A DNA stretch of 64,000 nt from a candidate division CSSED10-310 bacterium (GTDB lineage Bacteria > CSSED10-310). The stretch lies in NCBI GenBank assembly GCA_016931515.1, contig JAFGEQ010000024.1, forward strand, positions 31,711-95,710, in the 5' to 3' direction. Every line of letters begins with the position of its first letter. The first letter of the stretch is position 1. The position numbers were made by a program, and so were the translations under genes. Positions 39,502 through 52,723 of the stretch are shown piece by piece. Under the pieces are notes generated by a model. It saw nothing but the letters and a program-made list of their open reading frames with translations. It ran no database searches and had not been told where the DNA came from.

Positions 39502-40941
<1,440 letters not shown>

Positions 40942-41233: not shown

Positions 41234-42853
41234 CTACATCAGGACCCTCCCGATTTCTTCAAAACTCGTCACGCCTTCCATCACTCGTGCGTACCCGTCG
41301 TCGAGAAGAGACCGGAATCCCGGAATCCGGTCATTCGTTTGAAATTCCTCATTCAGCACATCCTTGCTTCCGGCAGCTGAGACGGCATTGCACGGCTCTG
41401 CAGACGATTTTTTCCCGGCATCCCGGAGTGGTGGCAACTGTGTCGGTTCCGGTAAACGCCAGTATCCTGAACCGGGTTCCAGCAGTTCCATGACGACATC
41501 ACGGCCGCGATATCCTGTCCCGTGACATGTGTCGCATCCAATGGCCCGATAAATCGGTCCCTTAAATGTTCTGAGAATATCGGGCATCATCCGGCGGTCA
41601 GTGTCCGGAACCGGTGCCTTACAGTCCGGGCACAACCGTCGAACCAGCCGTTGTGAGATGACACCGATGACGGTTTCGCGCAACACATGAGCCGGGACTC
41701 CAAGGTCCTGCATCAACCGAAGCGTCGCGTCAGCGTTTCGAGCGTGCAACTGGCTCAGTACAACATGCCCGGTCTGAGCCAACTGAGCCAGCAGTGTCGC
41801 CGTTTCAGGATTTCGGATTTCACCGGCACTGACAGCATCCGGATCCTGACGCATAACCGACCGCAAGGCCGCCGGGAACGTCAGACCGATCGCCGGATTG
41901 ACCTGCATCTGATAGACGTGCGGCAGGATGTATTCAACCGGATCCTCAATAGAAATGACATTCAGGGAACCTCGTTCAGACAGTTCCTTCAACAGCAGAT
42001 ACAGGGTCGTTGTCTTCCCCGATCCGGTCGGACCGGACACAAGAATCATCCCATACGGTGACGCCAGCCAACGCCGAATCATTGCAATCTTGTCGACTGA
42101 CACGCGGATGTGTTCGAATCCCTGCGGAAAGGCATTCCGATCCAAATATCTTATCACAACTTTTTCACCATGGATAAACGGACAGACCGATACGCGTAAA
42201 TCCAACCTTTTTTCCTCCGCTTTGGCCGAGCCGGATTCTGCGGGTTGACGCAACATGATCCGGCCGTCCTGCGGTATTTTGTGCTCCCCGGGATCCAATG
42301 CAGCCATCTCTTTGATTCGACCGACTATCGCACGGTATACAAGCGGATCCAGGCTGTCAGGCTGCTCCTTCAACACCCCATCGATGCGCAAACGCACTCG
42401 CCCGCCGTCTTCCGTGGGCTCCAGATGAAGATCACTTGCCCGGCTTTCCATCGCTTCGATGAGCAAACGGTTCACCTGCTTCAGAACATCGTGATACTGT
42501 GTCTTCACTGCCTCCAGCAGTAAGCCGACTCCCCGCGGTTCCGGAAGCTCCGGTTGATCAGCCATTAGTCTCCCGGCAAGACTTTTGAGAGTTGTATCCA
42601 GCTTTCCTGAATCCTCACCCGTCCGAATCGACTCTAAAACCTCCGCCGGCAGGAATTTCATGCGTCCCAGACTCTGAGCAAGCGTATCACCGGAACGGAT
42701 GAGACCGATCATCGCATTGATCATATCCCCGTCCATTTCGTCGGCCTCCGAAGACAGTGTTTCCAGCGTCTTGAGCAGTGGTACACCCCGTTCTAACAGG
42801 TTACCGGTCCGTTCAAAAAGAACCGCTATTCGCTTTTTCATCGTGTTGCTCAT
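41234..42853 (-). CDS. GspE/PilB-family secretion-type ATPase with an N-terminal GspF(T2SSF)-like domain
   Basis: Walker A 'VSGPTGSGKTTTLY', Asp box 'ISIEDPVEY', Walker B 'DPDAVSAGEIR', His box 'GHVVLSQLHA', tetracysteine 'CPDC...CDTCHGTGYRGR'. N-terminus 'LLERGVPLLKTLETLS...SGDTLAQSLGRMKFLPAEVLESIRTGEDSGKLDTTLKSLA'. GGAGGA SD 7 nt upstream of ATG 42853. Confidence 0.85.
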   Translation of the reverse strand: MSNTMKKRIAVLFERTGNLLERGVPLLKTLETLSSEADEMDGDMINAMIGLIRSGDTLAQSLGRMKFLPAEVLESIRTGEDSGKLDTTLKSLAGRLMADQPELPEPRGVGLLLEAVKTQYHDVLKQVNRLLIEAMESRASDLHLEPTEDGGRVRLRIDGVLKEQPDSLDPLVYRAIVGRIKEMAALDPGEHKIPQDGRIMLRQPAESGSAKAEEKRLDLRVSVCPFIHGEKVVIRYLDRNAFPQGFEHIRVSVDKIAMIRRWLASPYGMILVSGPTGSGKTTTLYLLLKELSERGSLNVISIEDPVEYILPHVYQMQVNPAIGLTFPAALRSVMRQDPDAVSAGEIRNPETATLLAQLAQTGHVVLSQLHARNADATLRLMQDLGVPAHVLRETVIGVISQRLVRRLCPDCKAPVPDTDRRMMPDILRTFKGPIYRAIGCDTCHGTGYRGRDVVMELLEPGSGYWRLPEPTQLPPLRDAGKKSSAEPCNAVSAAGSKDVLNEEFQTNDRIPGFRSLLDDGYARVMEGVTSFEEIGRVLM

Positions 42854-43328
42854 CAGATAATCCTCCAGGGAAAGTTAGAATGTTACTCTTCATCAAGGAC
42901 CTGTCATGACTGATTTCCCGGAAAAGGCCCCTTTCTTTTAACTCCATCCACCGGATCAGTCGCTCGCGGTTGAAACGGATCCTGCCGGCGACTTCAAACG
43001 CCGGCACGTTATCGAGACAATTCACGAGTTCCGGGACCGTGATCCCCAGAAATGCCGCGGTCTCCTCAATATCCATTACTTCACGATCAGCGAGGGGCGT
43101 CCGAAGCTGATGATCGAGTGCGATCCGGATCCGGAGATCTGCATCATCAGGCATTGCCAATTCCGAGAATGGTTCCAGCGCCATTCGGAGAGTCCGTGCC
43201 GATTCGGCCTGAGTCCAGCATTCCGCGCATATTGACAGATGGCTCATAAAACTTTCATGCTCAACAGAGTTAAGTTTACCGGCCAGGAAACTTTCCAGAT
43301 AACGGCATTCGTTAAGATTCCGATTCAT
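42813..43328 (-). CDS. Cytoplasmic zf-HC2-type anti-sigma factor candidate carrying an excisionase/MerR-like HTH domain
   Basis: 'CRYLESFLAGKLNSVEHESFMSHLSICAECW' (zf-HC2 pattern). 'MDIEETAAFLGITVPELVNCLDNVPAFEVAGRIRFNRERLIRWM' (HTH_17-like). No TM helix. ATGA overlap with the sigma gene. Confidence 0.6.
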   Translation of the reverse strand: MNRNLNECRYLESFLAGKLNSVEHESFMSHLSICAECWTQAESARTLRMALEPFSELAMPDDADLRIRIALDHQLRTPLADREVMDIEETAAFLGITVPELVNCLDNVPAFEVAGRIRFNRERLIRWMELKERGLFREISHDRSLMKSNILTFPGGLSDEQHDEKANSGSF

Positions 43329-43894
43329 CGCCCCTCCTCCGTGCTTTTGGAAACCTCCTGGTCATTAACAGCACCAGCCGATTTCAACACCGCCCTGATC
43401 CGATGAAGGCGTACTCGAACAGCTTCCGGCGTCAATCCCATGATGCCCGCAATTGACAATCCGTCCAGTCCTTCCAGTTCCTTCAACAGCACCAGGATTT
43501 TGTCCTCCGGTTGAAGTCCTGCAAGGAGTCGCTGCAACGTATCGCAAGCTACCAATCGCTGTTCGAAGCGTCCTCTGTCACCCGGGTCCGGTAACGGTTT
43601 CGAGGAGTGGTTTCGCATGTCCCACCGTTTCCGGTTGCGCCCGATATCGCGAATCCGGTTGGCGGATATCTGAAACAGCCAGGACCTGAAACGGTCAGCC
43701 GGCTGATACTTGTCCGCCGCTCCCGCAACGCGCAGAAATACGTCCTGAACCGCGTCTTCGGCATCGGCAGGTGATCCCAGGCAGGCGACTGCAAACCGGA
43801 ATACCCGGTGGCGATACCGCTCATACAGCATGGTGAACGCGTCCGTCGTACCTGCTGCAAACATGACCATCAACTCCTCGTCACTAAACCGCAT
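43325..43894 (-). CDS. ECF-type RNA polymerase sigma-70 factor
   Basis: Region 2 'FTMLYERYRHRVFRFAVACLGSPADAEDAVQDVFLRV' and region 4 'LSIAGIMGLTPEAVRVRLHRIRAVL'. ATG 43894 has a GGAGG SD. Confidence 0.85.
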   Translation of the reverse strand: MRFSDEELMVMFAAGTTDAFTMLYERYRHRVFRFAVACLGSPADAEDAVQDVFLRVAGAADKYQPADRFRSWLFQISANRIRDIGRNRKRWDMRNHSSKPLPDPGDRGRFEQRLVACDTLQRLLAGLQPEDKILVLLKELEGLDGLSIAGIMGLTPEAVRVRLHRIRAVLKSAGAVNDQEVSKSTEEGR

Positions 43895-44030
43895 TCTGCC
43901 TCCATTCACCTGTAAAACAATCGTGAGGACGATTATGTTACAGAGGCAGACGATTTTTTTCACGGGTGTCGCGTTTCAGAACGGGCATACCACCAAACGC
44001 GGCTTATTCTGGATCATGGGAATTGATTGG

Positions 44031-49021: not shown

Positions 49022-52000
49022 ATGATCAATGTCGCTCACATCGACAGATTCAAAGTTATCAAAGTGATCGGCCAGGGTGGTCAGGGCGAAGTCATTCACG
49101 TGCGGGACACCGACCAGACGGATTACGCTTTGAAATGGCTGTTACCCTACGTGGTCAACCAGGGTTCGACCGACCGTTTTCTCCGGGAATTCCAGTCGAT
49201 CAGAGCGTTATCTCATCCGAATGTGATCAGGGTGTTTGAGCAGGGTCAATTCCTGAACCGGCCTTATTTTACAATGGAACTCGTCTCCGGGGAAAACCTT
49301 GAGCAATTCATCGACAAGGAAAAAAACTTCGATGTGTATTACGATATTCTGATCCAGATCAGCAGTGCTCTTGGCTTCATCCATGATCATCGCCTGGTCC
49401 ATCGGGATATAAAACCGTCCAATGTCTTGGTTGACTCAAAAGGTTTTATCAAATTGATGGATTTCGGACTGGTGAAAAACCTGGATGCATCCATTCAATT
49501 AACCCAGGTGGACAAATTCTTCGGAACAATGAGTTATGCATCTCCTGAACAACTTCTGGGAGAAAAAGTCGATTATCGCAGTGACTTGTATTCATTGGGA
49601 ATCCTGATTTACCGGATGTTTAGTTCCAGATTGCCTTTTCATGGCGAATCCATGGTAGCCATCATCACAAAGCATTTGAGTGTCGTTCCCAAACCTCTTA
49701 AAGAGATTGTGCCTAACTGCTCACCCGTATTATCGGACCTTTGTGACCGTCTTCTGATGAAATCTCCATTGGATAGAACCCTGACGGCAGCCGATGTTGC
49801 GGCAACCATCCGAACAATCAATTCCGGGAAGAAAATATCAGTCCGGCAGCCGACTCTCGTTCGGGACCGGTCGATTCATCGTCTTCAGCTTCGATTTCAC
49901 GGGCGTGACCGTGAACTTCAATCTCTCCTGAGATCGCTCGATCAAACCGGCAACTTTTCCATTCAGCTGATTTGCGGAGAACAGGGTATCGGGAAATCGC
50001 GTCTGGTTAACGAGGCGGTTCGTGAATCGCTGATAGCAGGCAACCACCGAAAAGTAATTCGATGCTCCGGGCAATCCAGACAGCAGGACAATAATCGTAG
50101 CTCATTTTTCCATTTCATTGCCAACGAGATCGAAGCGCACATTGACAAACTCGGTGATCTCAAAGGGATACTCCCGGAGATCGCACCGCTTCATCCGGCT
50201 TTCCAACGATTCGATCCGACTCATTCTGCCCCGGACCCTTCCCCCGGAAGAGGCGGTTTCCGGTATAAAATTCGGTATCTGAGCGCTCTGGTTGCCCAGT
50301 TAACCCAGGCGGTGCCCTGGCACATCATCTGGGAAGACCTGCACCAGGCGAATGCATTTGAGATCGAGTGTCTGTCCGATCTGATCGACCTGAGTTATCA
50401 TCAGCCTGTACAGTGTTGTATTTGGGCGACTATCCGAACGGATGATTTTATAACCTCTCAGGATTTCAATGCCTTCGTTGCAGATTTCCAACCCGAGAAT
50501 CACTCTGACAGCATCATCCTGAAACCACTGGAATCGGTGGATGCCCAAATTATCATAGCATCAGTTATCAACATGCCCCGCGATGCCGGTATTGTGAATC
50601 AGATCGTCGAGTATTGCCAGGGGAACCCGTCTATCCTGCTGCAGACGATCCAGCACTGGATCGACAACGGCAATCTGATTGACAAAGACGGGCACATCTC
50701 TTTTGCCCACTCAACGGACAGCCGGGAAACAGTCGGTCCGATCGGACTGCAGGATATCGCACGGCAACGCCTGTCAACGTTGTCAAAAGAATCGCTGGAG
50801 CTGTTGACATGGATTGCCACACTTGATCAGGACGCTTATCTGGAAGTCATCCGGCACGGGTTGCAGTTTGCTGAGAAGGAGCTGATGAAACGTCTGAATG
50901 ACATGCTTTTTCATAGCTTTATAACATCGCACACAGATTCAGCAGGTGAGCGTTATACTGTAAGCAACCCAGTTCTGAAATCGATGATTCTCACAAATGC
51001 CGGTTCAGACAGAATACGGGGTATTCATGCTGAAACGGTCGGGATCATGGAACTTCTCGGAGGACACTACGCAAACCCGGTGCTTCTGAGCAGGCATCAG
51101 GAAAAAGCGGGAGAGATCGAGAACTCCTGTAAGAGTTATTATAAAGCCGCATCGGATGCCTATTCAAACAATCAACTGCTTGCAGCGCACGATTTAATGA
51201 GCAATGCCCATCGCCTTCTTCAGTCCATATCCATGGATTCAAAGGCGAATCAGCTGCTCAAAATCCGTGTATTGATTTTATACAGCAAAATTTTACTCAA
51301 CACCGGAACAATGGATGAGAATCAGCGACTCATTCCGGAGTTAAAAGACCTGTTGCAATCGATCCGTGATGTGTCAATGAAAAGTGATATTTACCATTTT
51401 GCGATCACCACATTGACCTATAGTTTCAAGTTTGATGAATCGAAGCGATGGCTTCAGGAATTTGAAACAGTCTTGCAGATGGAATCAGTGGAAAAGGGTG
51501 CCCGTTATTTTCAATTGCATGCCATGCTGAGTTTTTTTGAGCGGGATTATGACGAAGCCAACAGAAACTGGAAAAAAGCGCTTATCATCCGGAAAAGTAC
51601 AGGCGCACCTCCTGAGGAACTGGCTAATAGCCTGTTCATGCTGGCAAAGACACTCACCGCGACCGGACGCTATAAAGCATCCTTGCAGCTTCTTCGACAC
51701 GCATTCAAACTGATTCCGAAAGGCTATTCCCTGAGAACTCAAGCCATGCTGCTATCGGAAATGGGTAATGTCGCGTTCTACCAGAATCAAACCAAAACCG
51801 CGCTCAGTTATCTGGAAAGATCACGATCAATCAATGATACTTTGGGACTGAAATATTCCAAAGCATGCAATCTGCATGATCTCGCCCTCTGCCATCATCA
51901 ATTCGGAAATCTCAGCGAAGCCATCAAGTTGTGTTCGGAAGGTCTTGCAATTTTTCGCATACTGAAAACACCGCGGGAAAATGCTATGGGAACCATTACC

Positions 52001-52723
52001 GCGATCAACCTGGCTTTTGCAAATGGAGATTATGGAGGTGCAAGCAAGGAATGGAGCATCATTACGGGAATGTTCGGAGAGGACCTGTATTTCGATCGCT
52101 ATCCTTATCTCGCATGGCTTCATCACCGGACAATAAGTATGATTGCTGATCGTGAAACAAGGCGAAAGCTCTTGGGCAAACTGATCGGAATTCTCCGCCA
52201 CCTGACGGACATTGATTGGAAAGAGACCATCTGGCTGATGATCATGCATGAACGGATGGCCCGGAATCAATTGATAGCAGCAGAGCGAATCTGCCGAAGG
52301 GTGTCCCGAGCCCCCTCATCCATTCTGAATTACATGCCGTTCCGATTACAGCATGTCATACTTAAAATTTACAACGAACCTGACCGTGATCACCTCAGTA
52401 TGCTTGATGAATCCTTTCTGACTGAAATGGATCAGGTTACAGCGATGAAGGTCGAACGATCCTGTCTGATTGGAATTTTAAGCATGAAAACATCGGACGA
52501 TGATTATGCAGACATTCTAAAATCAATCGAAACAATGCCCGGGCCGCCGGCACAAATATGGACACTGAGCGTCCTGGCATATGCACTTGAGCGTCTGGGT
52601 AAAACTGAAGCGGCTGCTGATGTACGCCGGATTGAGCAATCCGCCCGAATCAGAATGGCGTCGGAACTGCCGGAGGATGCGAAACGGGAGTTTTTATCAC
52701 GGAAGGTAATAATCCGGATTTAA
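49022..52723 (+). CDS. Ser/Thr protein kinase fused to an AAA_16/STAND-type ATPase and a long TPR-like helical repeat region
   Basis: 'IGQGGQGEV', 'YALKWL', 'HRDIKPSNVLV', 'DFGL', 'SYASPEQ'. P-loop 'CGEQGIGKSRLV' (49976-49999 region). TPR-like repeats over the C-terminal ~600 aa. Confidence 0.85.
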   Translation: MINVAHIDRFKVIKVIGQGGQGEVIHVRDTDQTDYALKWLLPYVVNQGSTDRFLREFQSIRALSHPNVIRVFEQGQFLNRPYFTMELVSGENLEQFIDKEKNFDVYYDILIQISSALGFIHDHRLVHRDIKPSNVLVDSKGFIKLMDFGLVKNLDASIQLTQVDKFFGTMSYASPEQLLGEKVDYRSDLYSLGILIYRMFSSRLPFHGESMVAIITKHLSVVPKPLKEIVPNCSPVLSDLCDRLLMKSPLDRTLTAADVAATIRTINSGKKISVRQPTLVRDRSIHRLQLRFHGRDRELQSLLRSLDQTGNFSIQLICGEQGIGKSRLVNEAVRESLIAGNHRKVIRCSGQSRQQDNNRSSFFHFIANEIEAHIDKLGDLKGILPEIAPLHPAFQRFDPTHSAPDPSPGRGGFRYKIRYLSALVAQLTQAVPWHIIWEDLHQANAFEIECLSDLIDLSYHQPVQCCIWATIRTDDFITSQDFNAFVADFQPENHSDSIILKPLESVDAQIIIASVINMPRDAGIVNQIVEYCQGNPSILLQTIQHWIDNGNLIDKDGHISFAHSTDSRETVGPIGLQDIARQRLSTLSKESLELLTWIATLDQDAYLEVIRHGLQFAEKELMKRLNDMLFHSFITSHTDSAGERYTVSNPVLKSMILTNAGSDRIRGIHAETVGIMELLGGHYANPVLLSRHQEKAGEIENSCKSYYKAASDAYSNNQLLAAHDLMSNAHRLLQSISMDSKANQLLKIRVLILYSKILLNTGTMDENQRLIPELKDLLQSIRDVSMKSDIYHFAITTLTYSFKFDESKRWLQEFETVLQMESVEKGARYFQLHAMLSFFERDYDEANRNWKKALIIRKSTGAPPEELANSLFMLAKTLTATGRYKASLQLLRHAFKLIPKGYSLRTQAMLLSEMGNVAFYQNQTKTALSYLERSRSINDTLGLKYSKACNLHDLALCHHQFGNLSEAIKLCSEGLAIFRILKTPRENAMGTITAINLAFANGDYGGASKEWSIITGMFGEDLYFDRYPYLAWLHHRTISMIADRETRRKLLGKLIGILRHLTDIDWKETIWLMIMHERMARNQLIAAERICRRVSRAPSSILNYMPFRLQHVILKIYNEPDRDHLSMLDESFLTEMDQVTAMKVERSCLIGILSMKTSDDDYADILKSIETMPGPPAQIWTLSVLAYALERLGKTEAAADVRRIEQSARIRMASELPEDAKREFLSRKVIIRI

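What the first reader, a model, noticed from the sequence alone, without database searches (positions are those of the whole stretch)
41234..43894. ECF sigma / anti-sigma / GspE-type ATPase operon with no secretion or pilus machinery nearby
The three minus-strand genes are tightly coupled. The sigma and anti-sigma genes share an ATGA (43325-43328). The ATPase start (42853, with a GGAGGA SD) lies 41 nt inside the anti-sigma gene. GspE/PilB ATPases normally sit with platform (GspF/PilC), pilin and secretin genes, and none is present within at least 20 kb on either side. Coupling a hexameric secretion-type motor to a sigma/anti-sigma pair suggests either a regulatory use of the ATPase, such as ATP-dependent control of the anti-sigma factor, or ECF control of a distal pilus or secretion system.
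Basis: partly seen in the sequence, partly recalled or inferred. Interest (0 to 1): 0.65.

Follow-up and report, generated by a model that had tools for sequence, protein, structure and literature searches.

The report
Sigma switch wired to orphan secretion-type motor
Three tightly coupled genes (an ECF sigma factor, a membrane-less anti-sigma-like protein with an extra winged-helix domain, and a secretion/pilus-type ATPase fused to a piece of its own membrane platform) form a stand-alone cassette conserved across several bacterial phyla, which suggests a secretion motor has been recruited into a cytoplasmic gene-control circuit.

Summary
The three minus-strand genes exist as described: an ATGA overlap, a 41-nt overlap, and GGAGG-type SDs. 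No GspF, secretin or prepilin gene lies anywhere on the 100-kb contig. The genome has four other GspE/PilB genes, two of them sitting next to platform genes, so this is an extra copy.

New facts:
1. The ATPase has lost the usual N1E/T2SSE_N docking domain. It carries instead a TM-less GspF/PilC cytoplasmic domain, and two tandem copies in many Planctomycetota.
2. These fusion ATPases are one clade (100/95) that excludes the canonical paralogs.
3. The middle protein is a soluble ZAS-type anti-sigma domain plus an acidic excisionase-like winged helix.
4. The order sigma → middle protein → ATPase is kept in every informative locus examined (about 27). Searches started from each of the three genes, flanks are unrelated, and loci come from CSSED10-310 (7 of 14 genomes), Planctomycetota (~3.5%) and unclassified MAGs.
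5. A conserved ECF-type promoter (TGTAAC-N17/18-GTTnTAC) precedes every sigma gene, which indicates autoregulation.

No other target was found. The htrA and T2SS promoter look-alikes belong to a different, phylum-wide sigma.

The mechanism is inferred. Most likely the ATPase is the regulatory partner of the anti-sigma (~0.45). The main rival is that it is the cassette's regulated output (~0.3). I found no description in the searched literature.

The parts
43912..43942 (-). ECF-type autoregulatory promoter: TGTAAC (43942-43937), 18 nt, GTTTTAC (43918-43912). It ends 8 nt before the GGAGG SD of the sigma gene.
   Evidence: The same element, TG(T/A)AAC-N17/18-GTT-n-TAC, is found at the same position upstream of the sigma gene in all 15 loci compared. 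It is the top PWM hit in the whole genome, scoring 26.5, though it was part of the training set.
43325..43894 (-). ECF (group 4) sigma-70 factor, 189 aa, with a conserved N-terminus MxFSDEELMVMFAAG.
   Evidence: PF04542 at 1.5e-16 and PF08281 at 8.7e-10; TIGR02937 82.5 bits against a cut-off of 42.9. Orthologs are 42-51% identical in five CSSED10-type loci.
42813..43328 (-). Soluble two-domain anti-sigma-like protein, 171 aa. Residues 1-76 are a four-helix ZAS-type anti-sigma domain (C8, H30, C34, C37, then the 'DADLRIR' helix). Residues 85-129 are an excisionase/HTH_17-like winged helix (nt 42942-43076). Residues 121-148 form a long helix, followed by a disordered tail with FPGG.
   Evidence: Alignment. 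AF2 model with pLDDT 79.7. Foldseek: RslA probability 0.96 and ChrR 0.63 for the N-half; RdfS, Xis, BldC and RacA probability 0.94-1.0 for the C-half. Maximum 19-residue hydropathy is 1.07, so no TM segment.
42563..42850 (-). N-terminal domain of the ATPase (aa 2-97): a six-helix bundle homologous to the cytoplasmic domain of the platform protein GspF/PilC, without TM helices.
   Evidence: PF00482 39.1 bits against a cut-off of 25.2. Sequence match to the second cytoplasmic domain of M. xanthus PilC, E 1.3e-10, and to EpsF cyto1, E 4e-4. AF2 predicts six helices with pLDDT about 90.
41234..42853 (-). GspE/PilB-clade hexameric-type ATPase, 539 aa. Layout: F-domain, linker helix (aa 109-136), N2E (141-237), CTE with Walker A GPTGSGKT, EDPVE, DPD..GE, His boxes and CxxC..CxxC, then a lineage-specific disordered insert (aa 470-508, nt 41330-41446).
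   Evidence: PF00437 323.9 bits. It scores below the equivalog cut-offs for GspE (354.6 against 630) and PilB (333.5 against 676). Catalytic residues are invariant in 22 family members. AF2 pLDDT 86.5, pTM 0.74. Foldseek matches PilB, PilF and GspE at E 1e-36 to 1e-39.

Best explanation
This is a self-contained, wholly cytoplasmic, autoregulated three-protein ECF signalling cassette.

Shown:
- An ECF sigma, a soluble ZAS-type anti-sigma-like protein with a C-terminal acidic winged helix, and a catalytically intact GspE/PilB-clade ATPase are inherited as one unit across phyla.
- The ATPase's machine-docking N-domain is replaced by TM-less GspF/PilC platform domain(s).
- The unit sits behind a conserved sigma-type promoter.

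Inferred mechanism:
- The anti-sigma domain sequesters the sigma.
- The ATPase engages its own fused platform domain the way PilB engages PilC. It binds the anti-sigma's extra C-terminal module (winged helix, long helix and tail).
- It uses ATP binding or hydrolysis to remodel or hold that protein, which sets how much sigma is free.
- Released sigma transcribes the operon from TGTAAC-N17/18-GTTnTAC as positive feedback, plus targets not yet identified.
- The Zn/thiol ZAS site may add a redox input.
For: Obligate linkage in three directions:
- ATPase-centred: 8 of 8 contexts.
- Sigma-centred: the 6 loci with sigma identity of at least 36% carry the triplet, and 0 of 30 generic ECF loci do.
- Middle-protein-centred: 7 of 7 full-length hits in the phylum lie on contigs that carry the triplet, 14 of 14 in Planctomycetota, and one remote representative.

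Flanking genes differ in every locus.

Gene junctions are 4-nt overlaps or other overlaps up to 41 nt in most loci (and the gene tables).

The fusion ATPases are one clade, 100/95, that excludes the genome's canonical paralogs.

The N1E/T2SSE_N domain is absent and replaced by one or two T2SSF domains.

None of the three proteins has a TM segment.

All ATPase catalytic motifs are invariant.

The winged-helix region is net acidic, median -3 over 136 representatives, which is atypical for a DNA binder.

The autoregulatory promoter is conserved in 15 of 15 loci.
Against: There is no interaction, expression or biochemical evidence of any kind; the one metatranscriptome searched has no reads here.

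The only detectable target of the promoter motif in this genome is the operon itself. That fits the ATPase being the output just as well.

Some lineages (L016, L026, L119-L121) lack the ZAS domain in the middle protein, so classic anti-sigma action cannot be universal.

Three Planctomycetota loci show no detectable F-domain.

No precedent is known to me for a GspE-family ATPase acting on an anti-sigma factor.
Confidence: 0.45

Rival explanations
1. The ATPase is the output and not a regulator. The sigma/anti-sigma pair is a dedicated switch, perhaps redox-sensing through the ZAS site, whose main job is to express an auxiliary motor. That motor docks on a resident T2SS or T4P platform through heterodimerisation of its GspF-like domain with GspF/PilC, changing secretion or piliation under stress.
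For: The only strong match to the promoter motif in the genome is the operon's own promoter, so the ATPase is the only identified regulated product. The ATPase is fully catalytically competent. GspF/PilC cytoplasmic domains are known to dimerise (established knowledge; structures 2vma, 3c1q and 2whn are matched). Every genome of the phylum has a T2SS, and this genome has complete T2SS and T4P sets elsewhere. ECF operons often carry one target gene.
Against: The domain that docks GspE to GspL (N1E) or that characterises PilB (T2SSE_N) is missing. Basal family members carry two F-domains, the full cytoplasmic complement of a platform protein, so they need no resident platform partner. A TM-less platform cannot move pilins. 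This reading does not explain the universally kept extra winged-helix module on the anti-sigma, nor the translational coupling of that gene with the ATPase. The module is absent from half of the phylum's genomes, which have the same T2SS.
Confidence: 0.3
2. It is a DNA-directed or mobile/defence-type cassette. The excisionase-like winged helix binds DNA (an operator or a foreign DNA feature), and the ATPase works with it as a DNA- or nucleoprotein-remodelling motor. The sigma provides inducible expression. This would resemble accessory islands that sense invaders.
For: The best fold matches of the C-half are excisionases, the terminase small-subunit DNA-binding domain, BldC, RacA and TraN. Distribution is patchy and single-copy with variable flanks: 7 of 14 genomes in the phylum and 15 of 401 Planctomycetota genomes at E<=1e-12. 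The wing GRxRFRR is strongly basic.
Against: There is no meaningful match to known defence systems: PADLOC gives only a P-loop hit. The winged-helix region is net acidic in most members. No integrase, recombinase or phage genes recur next to it. GspE/PilB-family ATPases are not known to act on DNA. The N-half has an anti-sigma fold and the sigma gene is always adjacent.
Confidence: 0.1
3. The three genes are adjacent by chance, or the ATPase is a decaying paralog.
For: One Planctomycetota locus (L026/L116) has the ATPase split into two ORFs.
Against: About 27 independent loci keep the order and strand with unrelated flanks, down to about 35% ATPase identity. Catalytic residues are invariant, and the clade is monophyletic.
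Confidence: 0.02

Closest known systems
Cytoplasmic ZAS anti-sigma systems with an extra C-terminal domain (R. sphaeroides SigE-ChrR; also S. coelicolor SigR-RsrA, M. tuberculosis SigL-RslA)
   Same: An ECF sigma is co-transcribed with a soluble or ZAS-type anti-sigma domain carrying HxxxCxxC. The N-half of the model matches the anti-sigma domains of ChrR and RslA. The operon has an autoregulated ECF promoter.
   Different: The C-terminal domain is an acidic excisionase/HTH_17-like winged helix, where ChrR has a cupin. A third, obligately linked partner, a GspE-clade ATPase, has no counterpart in those systems. Some members lack the ZAS domain altogether.
Type II secretion / type IVa pilus extension ATPases (GspE/EpsE, PilB/PilF)
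   Same: The N2E + CTE core is 33-37% identical, with all nucleotide-binding motifs and the tetracysteine Zn site.
   Different: It scores below the equivalog cut-offs for GspE and PilB. It has no N1E or T2SSE_N domain, and its N-terminus is a platform-protein domain. It forms a separate clade. It is never next to platform, pilin or secretin genes and is always next to a sigma/anti-sigma pair.
Platform proteins GspF/PilC
   Same: The N-domain has the T2SSF six-helix bundle and its signature residues (GVPLL, GE.sG.LD). The best match is the second cytoplasmic domain of PilC.
   Different: There are no transmembrane helices. There are one or two domains, fused to the motor instead of forming a polytopic membrane protein.
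ATP-dependent or partner-switching control of sigma factors (SpoIIAB/RsbW kinase anti-sigmas; PhyR-NepR-EcfG; regulated proteolysis of RseA/RsiW by ClpXP)
   Same: The concept is shared: a third protein, sometimes nucleotide-dependent, decides whether the anti-sigma holds the sigma.
   Different: The protein families are entirely different (GHKL kinases, response-regulator mimics, AAA+ unfoldases). None of them uses a secretion-superfamily ATPase. The resemblance is functional analogy only and is untested here.

Membership tests
ECF (group 4) sigma-70 factors | Only sigma-2 and sigma-4 domains are present; the protein matches the ECF superfamily model above its cut-off. | tested here: met
   PF04542 + PF08281; TIGR02937 82.5 bits against a cut-off of 42.9; 189 aa.
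ECF (group 4) sigma-70 factors | Assignment to a named ECF group (Staron / Casas-Pastor classification). | not testable with these tools
   No ECF-group library is available. The main text of PMC7826278 mentions no secretion-ATPase context, and its supplements are not held.
Class I / ZAS anti-sigma factors | An N-terminal four-helix anti-sigma domain with the Zn motif HxxxCxxC plus an upstream ligand. | tested here: met
   C8, H30, C34 and C37 are invariant in the CSSED10-type clade. 126 of 136 family representatives have HxxxCxxC. Fold match to RslA at probability 0.96. The Pfam zf-HC2 hit in the window protein is below its cut-off (17.0 against 22.2), but it is listed unmarked (E<=1e-5) for L014 and L129.
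Class I / ZAS anti-sigma factors | Binds and inhibits its cognate sigma. | not testable with these tools
   This needs a binding or reporter assay, or multimer modelling. Only adjacency and the ATGA coupling are shown here.
GspE (T2SS ATPase, TIGR02533) / PilB (T4aP ATPase, TIGR02538) equivalogs | Score above the curated equivalog cut-off. | tested here: not met
   354.6 against 630.25 for GspE, and 333.5 against 675.65 for PilB.
GspE / PilB equivalogs | An N-terminal N1E / T2SSE_N (PF05157) domain that docks to GspL or binds regulators. | tested here: not met
   No PF05157 hit. Residues 1-100 are PF00482 instead.
GspE / PilB equivalogs | Encoded with, or serving, platform, pilin and secretin genes. 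| tested here: not met
   None of these lie on the 100-kb contig, and none were found in the flanks of the ATPase-centred and sigma-centred homolog loci.
T2SSE superfamily (PF00437) secretion ATPases | The N2E + CTE fold with Walker A, Asp box, Walker B and His box. | tested here: met
   323.9 bits. Motifs are invariant. Foldseek matches PilB and GspE at E about 1e-38.
GspF/PilC platform proteins | A polytopic inner-membrane protein with two T2SSF cytoplasmic domains separated by TM helices. | tested here: not met
   A single T2SSF domain and no TM segment (maximum hydropathy 0.92), fused to an ATPase. It shares the domain but is not a platform protein.
HTH_17 / excisionase-MerR winged helix | The winged-helix fold and a match to PF12728. 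| tested here: inconclusive
   The window protein scores 19.2 bits against a cut-off of 27. Homologs in L017, L020, L128 and L129 are listed unmarked, E<=1e-5. The top Foldseek hits are excisionases at probability 0.99-1.0, but with E>0.01. DNA binding is untested and is doubtful on charge grounds.

The most novel reading that the evidence does not exclude
A secretion/pilus motor ATPase, fused to a soluble copy of its own platform, has been exapted into a cytoplasmic signal-transduction device. It mechanically controls an ECF sigma factor through a new kind of anti-sigma adaptor (ZAS domain plus acidic winged helix). This would be a previously unrecognised mode of ECF regulation and the first non-envelope job for the GspE/PilB family.
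Probability: 0.35. Interest if true: 0.85.

Novelty: new variant of a known kind. Interest (0 to 1): 0.68.

Why it matters
ECF sigma factors are a major route of bacterial signal transduction, and the known ways of controlling them are few: membrane anti-sigma proteolysis, partner switching, kinases, C-terminal extensions and redox ZAS sensors. GspE/PilB ATPases are known only as motors bolted to envelope machines.

A cassette that strictly couples the two, conserved over at least two phyla and in well over 100 sequence clusters, points to one of two things. Either it is a new regulatory mechanism, or it is a new, tightly controlled accessory motor for secretion or pili. Both would be new biology.

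The motor with TM-less platform domain(s) fused to it is also a natural minimal system for asking how PilB-type hexamers engage PilC-type domains, which is an unresolved question in T2SS/T4P mechanics.

The parts are small and soluble, and the promoter is defined. The hypothesis can therefore be tested directly in E. coli with a reporter.

Tried and rejected
1. htrA (DegP-like, C12:257128-258609) as a regulon member. It has the second-best PWM hit in the genome (22.6). The same CTGGAACATTC..TGTGTTTTA site is conserved upstream of htrA in module-negative genomes G007 and G008, so it belongs to another GGAAC-type ECF sigma.

2. The T2SS gspE operon (C24:9669) as a target. A site lies immediately before its SD (15.9, within the noise range). 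A (C)AGGAACT...GT(T/A)TTA element precedes gspE in nearly all 14 genomes of the phylum regardless of the module. Rejected as module-specific.

3. Second TGTAAC..GGTTGTAC sites in four module-positive genomes. They do not precede orthologous genes, and the one in this genome is inside an FtsW/RodA-like ORF.

4. Linkage to the nearby Ser/Thr-kinase-AAA_16-TPR giant (window 49022-52723; similar genes in L015, L080 and L025). Only about 28% identity in the kinase domain, and about 10 such genes in the genome. Coincidence.

5. A second sigma/ZAS pair on C3 near the divergent GspE-like C3:80036. It is separated by opposite-strand pyrE and pyrD, and that ATPase is membrane-anchored. Unrelated.

6. 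Defence-system membership. PADLOC gives only a P-loop hit to mad8.

7. RNA evidence for one transcript. The only same-study metatranscriptome has no real coverage.

8. Literature. Six full-text searches, plus the ECF reclassification paper PMC7826278, gave no description of this architecture. The supplements of that paper are not held, so a listing of this context there cannot be excluded.

9. The search for related loci with middle-protein alignments failed because there was no sufficiently conserved stretch. The sigma alignment was used instead.
Full report
**1. Observation**

The three minus-strand ORFs are present. The sigma gene is best read from the ATG at 43894 (189 aa, GGAGG 5 nt upstream). 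The longer GTG ORF reaching 43963 adds 23 residues that no homolog has. The sigma stop and the middle-gene start share ATGA at 43325-43328. The ATPase ATG at 42853 follows GGAGGA and lies 41 nt inside the middle gene.

Pfam and NCBIfam give Sigma70_r2 + r4_2 for the sigma (TIGR02937 82.5 bits, cut-off 42.9). The middle protein gets weak zf-HC2 and HTH_17 hits. The ATPase scores 323.9 bits on T2SSE.

The window lies on a 100-kb contig (C8) of a 2.57-Mb, 24-contig, ~90% complete MAG. Whole-genome scans found the following:
- 13 T2SSE-family genes. The window's copy is the fifth best. The four better ones are on C24, C23, C13 and C3.
- Platform genes only on C23 and C24.
- Secretins on C24, C2 and C16.
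- Prepilin-type genes on C16, C13, C4, C24 and C19.

None of these are on C8. C24 carries a complete T2SS operon, and C23 carries PilB-PilT-PilC. The ATPase is therefore a supernumerary, truly orphan copy.

An independent soil metagenome contains a near-identical strain. Its contigs cross the gene overlap with SNPs only.

**2. What the proteins are**

*The ATPase.* Residues 17-98 match PF00482 (T2SSF, 39.1 bits against a cut-off of 25.2). This is the cytoplasmic domain of the platform protein GspF/PilC, not the N1E/T2SSE_N domain of GspE/PilB. As a separate query, the N-terminal 119 residues hit the second cytoplasmic domain of M. xanthus PilC (E 1.3e-10) and the solved EpsF/PilC cytoplasmic domains.

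The AF2 model (pLDDT 86.5, pTM 0.74) shows these parts:
- a six-helix bundle (aa 2-97)
- a linker helix
- N2E and CTE domains
- a disordered lineage-specific insert (aa 470-508)

Foldseek matches PilB, PilF and GspE at E 1e-36 to 1e-39. Walker A, the Asp box, Walker B, the His boxes and the tetracysteine site are invariant in 22 family members. The protein scores far below the curated equivalog cut-offs for GspE and PilB.

*The middle protein.* It has C8, H30, C34 and C37 (C-x21-HxxxCxxC) in a four-helix N-half that Foldseek pairs with the anti-sigma domains of RslA and ChrR. Then come an excisionase-type winged helix (RdfS, Xis, BldC, RacA), a long helix and a disordered tail.

None of the three proteins has a TM segment.

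These domain-level points agree with two separate first-reader notes on the same genes, e1-4930825 and e1-4930826. I verified both independently.

**3. Conservation**

Linkage was tested from each of the three genes.

*Starting from the ATPase.* About 20 clusters share the PF00482+PF00437 architecture at 35-64% identity. Below that, hits are ordinary PF05157-bearing GspE/PilB. All eight contexts fetched have sigma → ~150-170-aa ZAS/HTH protein → fusion ATPase on one strand, with completely different flanks.

*Starting from the sigma.* This scan covered one genome per species. The six loci with at least 36% sigma identity carry the middle protein and the ATPase. The thirty generic ECF loci do not.

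*Starting from the middle protein.*
- Full-length matches occur in 7 of the 14 genomes of the window's phylum. The closest named relative is candidate division CSSED10-310.
- These seven matches lie on contigs where I found the full triplet.
- Two 92-93% complete genomes of the same family lack it.
- In a 401-genome sample of Planctomycetota, 15 genomes (~3.5%) have a hit.
- The 14 genuine hits all sit in the same triplet order. The fifteenth is a ZAS-only match inside a 474-aa ORF.
- A remote representative (profile E 1e-27) is again in a triplet.

A profile search of 1.84 billion representatives gives 56 clusters at E≤1e-30 and 572 at E≤1e-10. Of the best 150, 136 are 120-200 aa long, and 126 of those carry HxxxCxxC.

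A maximum-likelihood tree puts all fusion ATPases in one clade (100/95, 100% of bootstrap trees). That clade excludes the genome's four canonical paralogs.

Many Planctomycetota members have two tandem T2SSF domains. These sit basally in the tree, so the ancestral state was probably a motor fused to a complete but TM-less platform cytoplasmic moiety.

Variation exists:
- Some middle proteins lack the ZAS domain (L016, L026, L119-L121).
- Three loci show no detectable F-domain.
- One ATPase is split into two ORFs.

**4. Promoter and regulon**

All 15 sigma-upstream regions compared contain TG(T/A)AAC-N17/18-GTT-n-TAC, ending 10-25 nt before the SD in the CSSED10-type loci. This is the classic ECF autoregulatory arrangement. 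In the window it is TGTAAC at 43942-43937 and GTTTTAC at 43918-43912.

A PWM scan of the whole genome puts this site first (26.5, though it was in the training set). Counts at lower scores equal the shuffled expectation.

Two tempting further hits failed a comparative test. One is in front of a DegP/HtrA protease on C12 (22.6). The other is directly in front of the T2SS gspE operon on C24 (15.9). Their GGAAC-type elements are equally conserved in genomes that lack the module. They therefore report a different, phylum-wide ECF sigma.

Further TGTAAC sites in module-positive genomes do not precede orthologous genes.

The only demonstrable target is thus the operon itself. Other genomes could not be scanned in full.

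**5. Mechanism**

Shown:
- obligate three-gene inheritance
- translational coupling
- an all-soluble composition
- an intact catalytic site
- replacement of the machine-docking domain by platform domain(s)
- an extra, universally retained winged-helix module on the anti-sigma-like protein, whose net charge is acidic (median -3)
- a conserved autoregulatory promoter

Inferred (confidence about 0.45): the ATPase is the regulatory partner. It engages its own fused platform domain as PilB engages PilC. Through the anti-sigma's C-terminal module it couples ATP turnover to holding or releasing the sigma, and the ZAS site gives a possible redox input.

The main rival (about 0.3) is that the ATPase is the regulated output, an auxiliary motor that docks onto resident GspF/PilC. 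Points in its favour:
- The regulon found so far is only the operon.
- GspF domains dimerise.

Points against it:
- The docking domain is lost.
- Basal members are self-sufficient with two F-domains.
- A TM-less platform cannot move pilins.
- The extra anti-sigma domain is left unexplained.
- Half of the phylum has the same T2SS but no module.

A DNA-directed or defence-type role (about 0.1) is suggested only by the excisionase fold and the patchy distribution. PADLOC gives nothing.

**6. Comparison with known systems**

The cassette works most like cytoplasmic ZAS systems with an added sensor domain (SigE-ChrR, SigR-RsrA). It differs in having a different added domain and a third obligate component that has no counterpart there.

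The ATPase belongs to the T2SSE superfamily, but it is not a GspE or PilB equivalog. Three defining features were tested and not met: the equivalog score, the N-domain, and the genomic partners.

Its N-domain is a T2SSF domain, but the protein is not a platform protein.

Six full-text searches and the ECF reclassification paper (PMC7826278) gave no description of this arrangement. That paper's supplementary context tables are not held, so an unremarked listing there cannot be excluded.

**7. Verdict**

This is a real, well-conserved cassette that I could not find described in the searched literature. It is a new variant of ECF sigma/anti-sigma signalling that incorporates a repurposed secretion-type motor. 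The mechanism remains inferred. No expression or interaction data could be obtained.

Noticed in passing
G000:C24:9630-9661 (outside the window) and orthologous positions in L095-L106: An ECF-type element (C)AGGAACT-N~17-GT(T/A)TTA lies immediately upstream of the SD of gspE, the first gene of a complete T2SS operon. It is conserved in nearly all 14 genomes of the phylum, so the T2SS of this phylum appears to be driven by an ECF-type (GGAAC) promoter.
   Followed up: partly
G000:C12:258625-258657(-) (outside the window); L083-L085: A DegP/HtrA-like protease gene, followed by an ABC transporter, has a strong CTGGAACATTC-N-TGTGTTTTA promoter-like site. It is conserved in the window's family whether or not the module is present, and it probably belongs to an RpoE-like envelope-stress sigma.
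   Followed up: partly
G000:C3:80036-81580(+) (outside the window): Another very divergent GspE-like ATPase (a long branch in the tree) has two predicted N-terminal TM helices and no adjacent platform gene. It is followed by a 706-aa protein. This is a second non-canonical use of the motor family in this genome.
   Followed up: no
window 41330-41446 (-), ATPase residues 470-508: A lineage-specific insertion of about 39 residues, predicted disordered (pLDDT below 50), sits in the C-terminal domain of the window's ATPase. It is absent from all 21 other family members aligned.
   Followed up: no
L026 5919-7418 (= L116): In one Planctomycetota MAG the fusion ATPase is split into two ORFs (222 + 270 aa), and its middle protein lacks the ZAS domain. 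This may be a decaying copy or an assembly error.
   Followed up: no
proteins P0199, P0203, P0219, P0234, P0236 and others: Proteins of 380-480 aa carry three to five tandem stretches matching the ZAS/anti-sigma part of the profile. This is an unusual repeated anti-sigma-domain architecture.
   Followed up: no
window 43921-43934 (-), promoter spacer: The spacer of the operon promoter contains a 5-bp inverted repeat, ATCGT-N4-ACGAT. The htrA promoter spacer on C12 has ACGAT-N5-ATCGT. This is not conserved in other genomes and may be chance.
   Followed up: no
window 39502-40941 (-): An alpha/beta-hydrolase fused to an FGE-sulfatase-like domain lies 292 nt downstream of the ATPase. It is not found next to the module in any other locus, so it is not part of the cassette.
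   Followed up: partly
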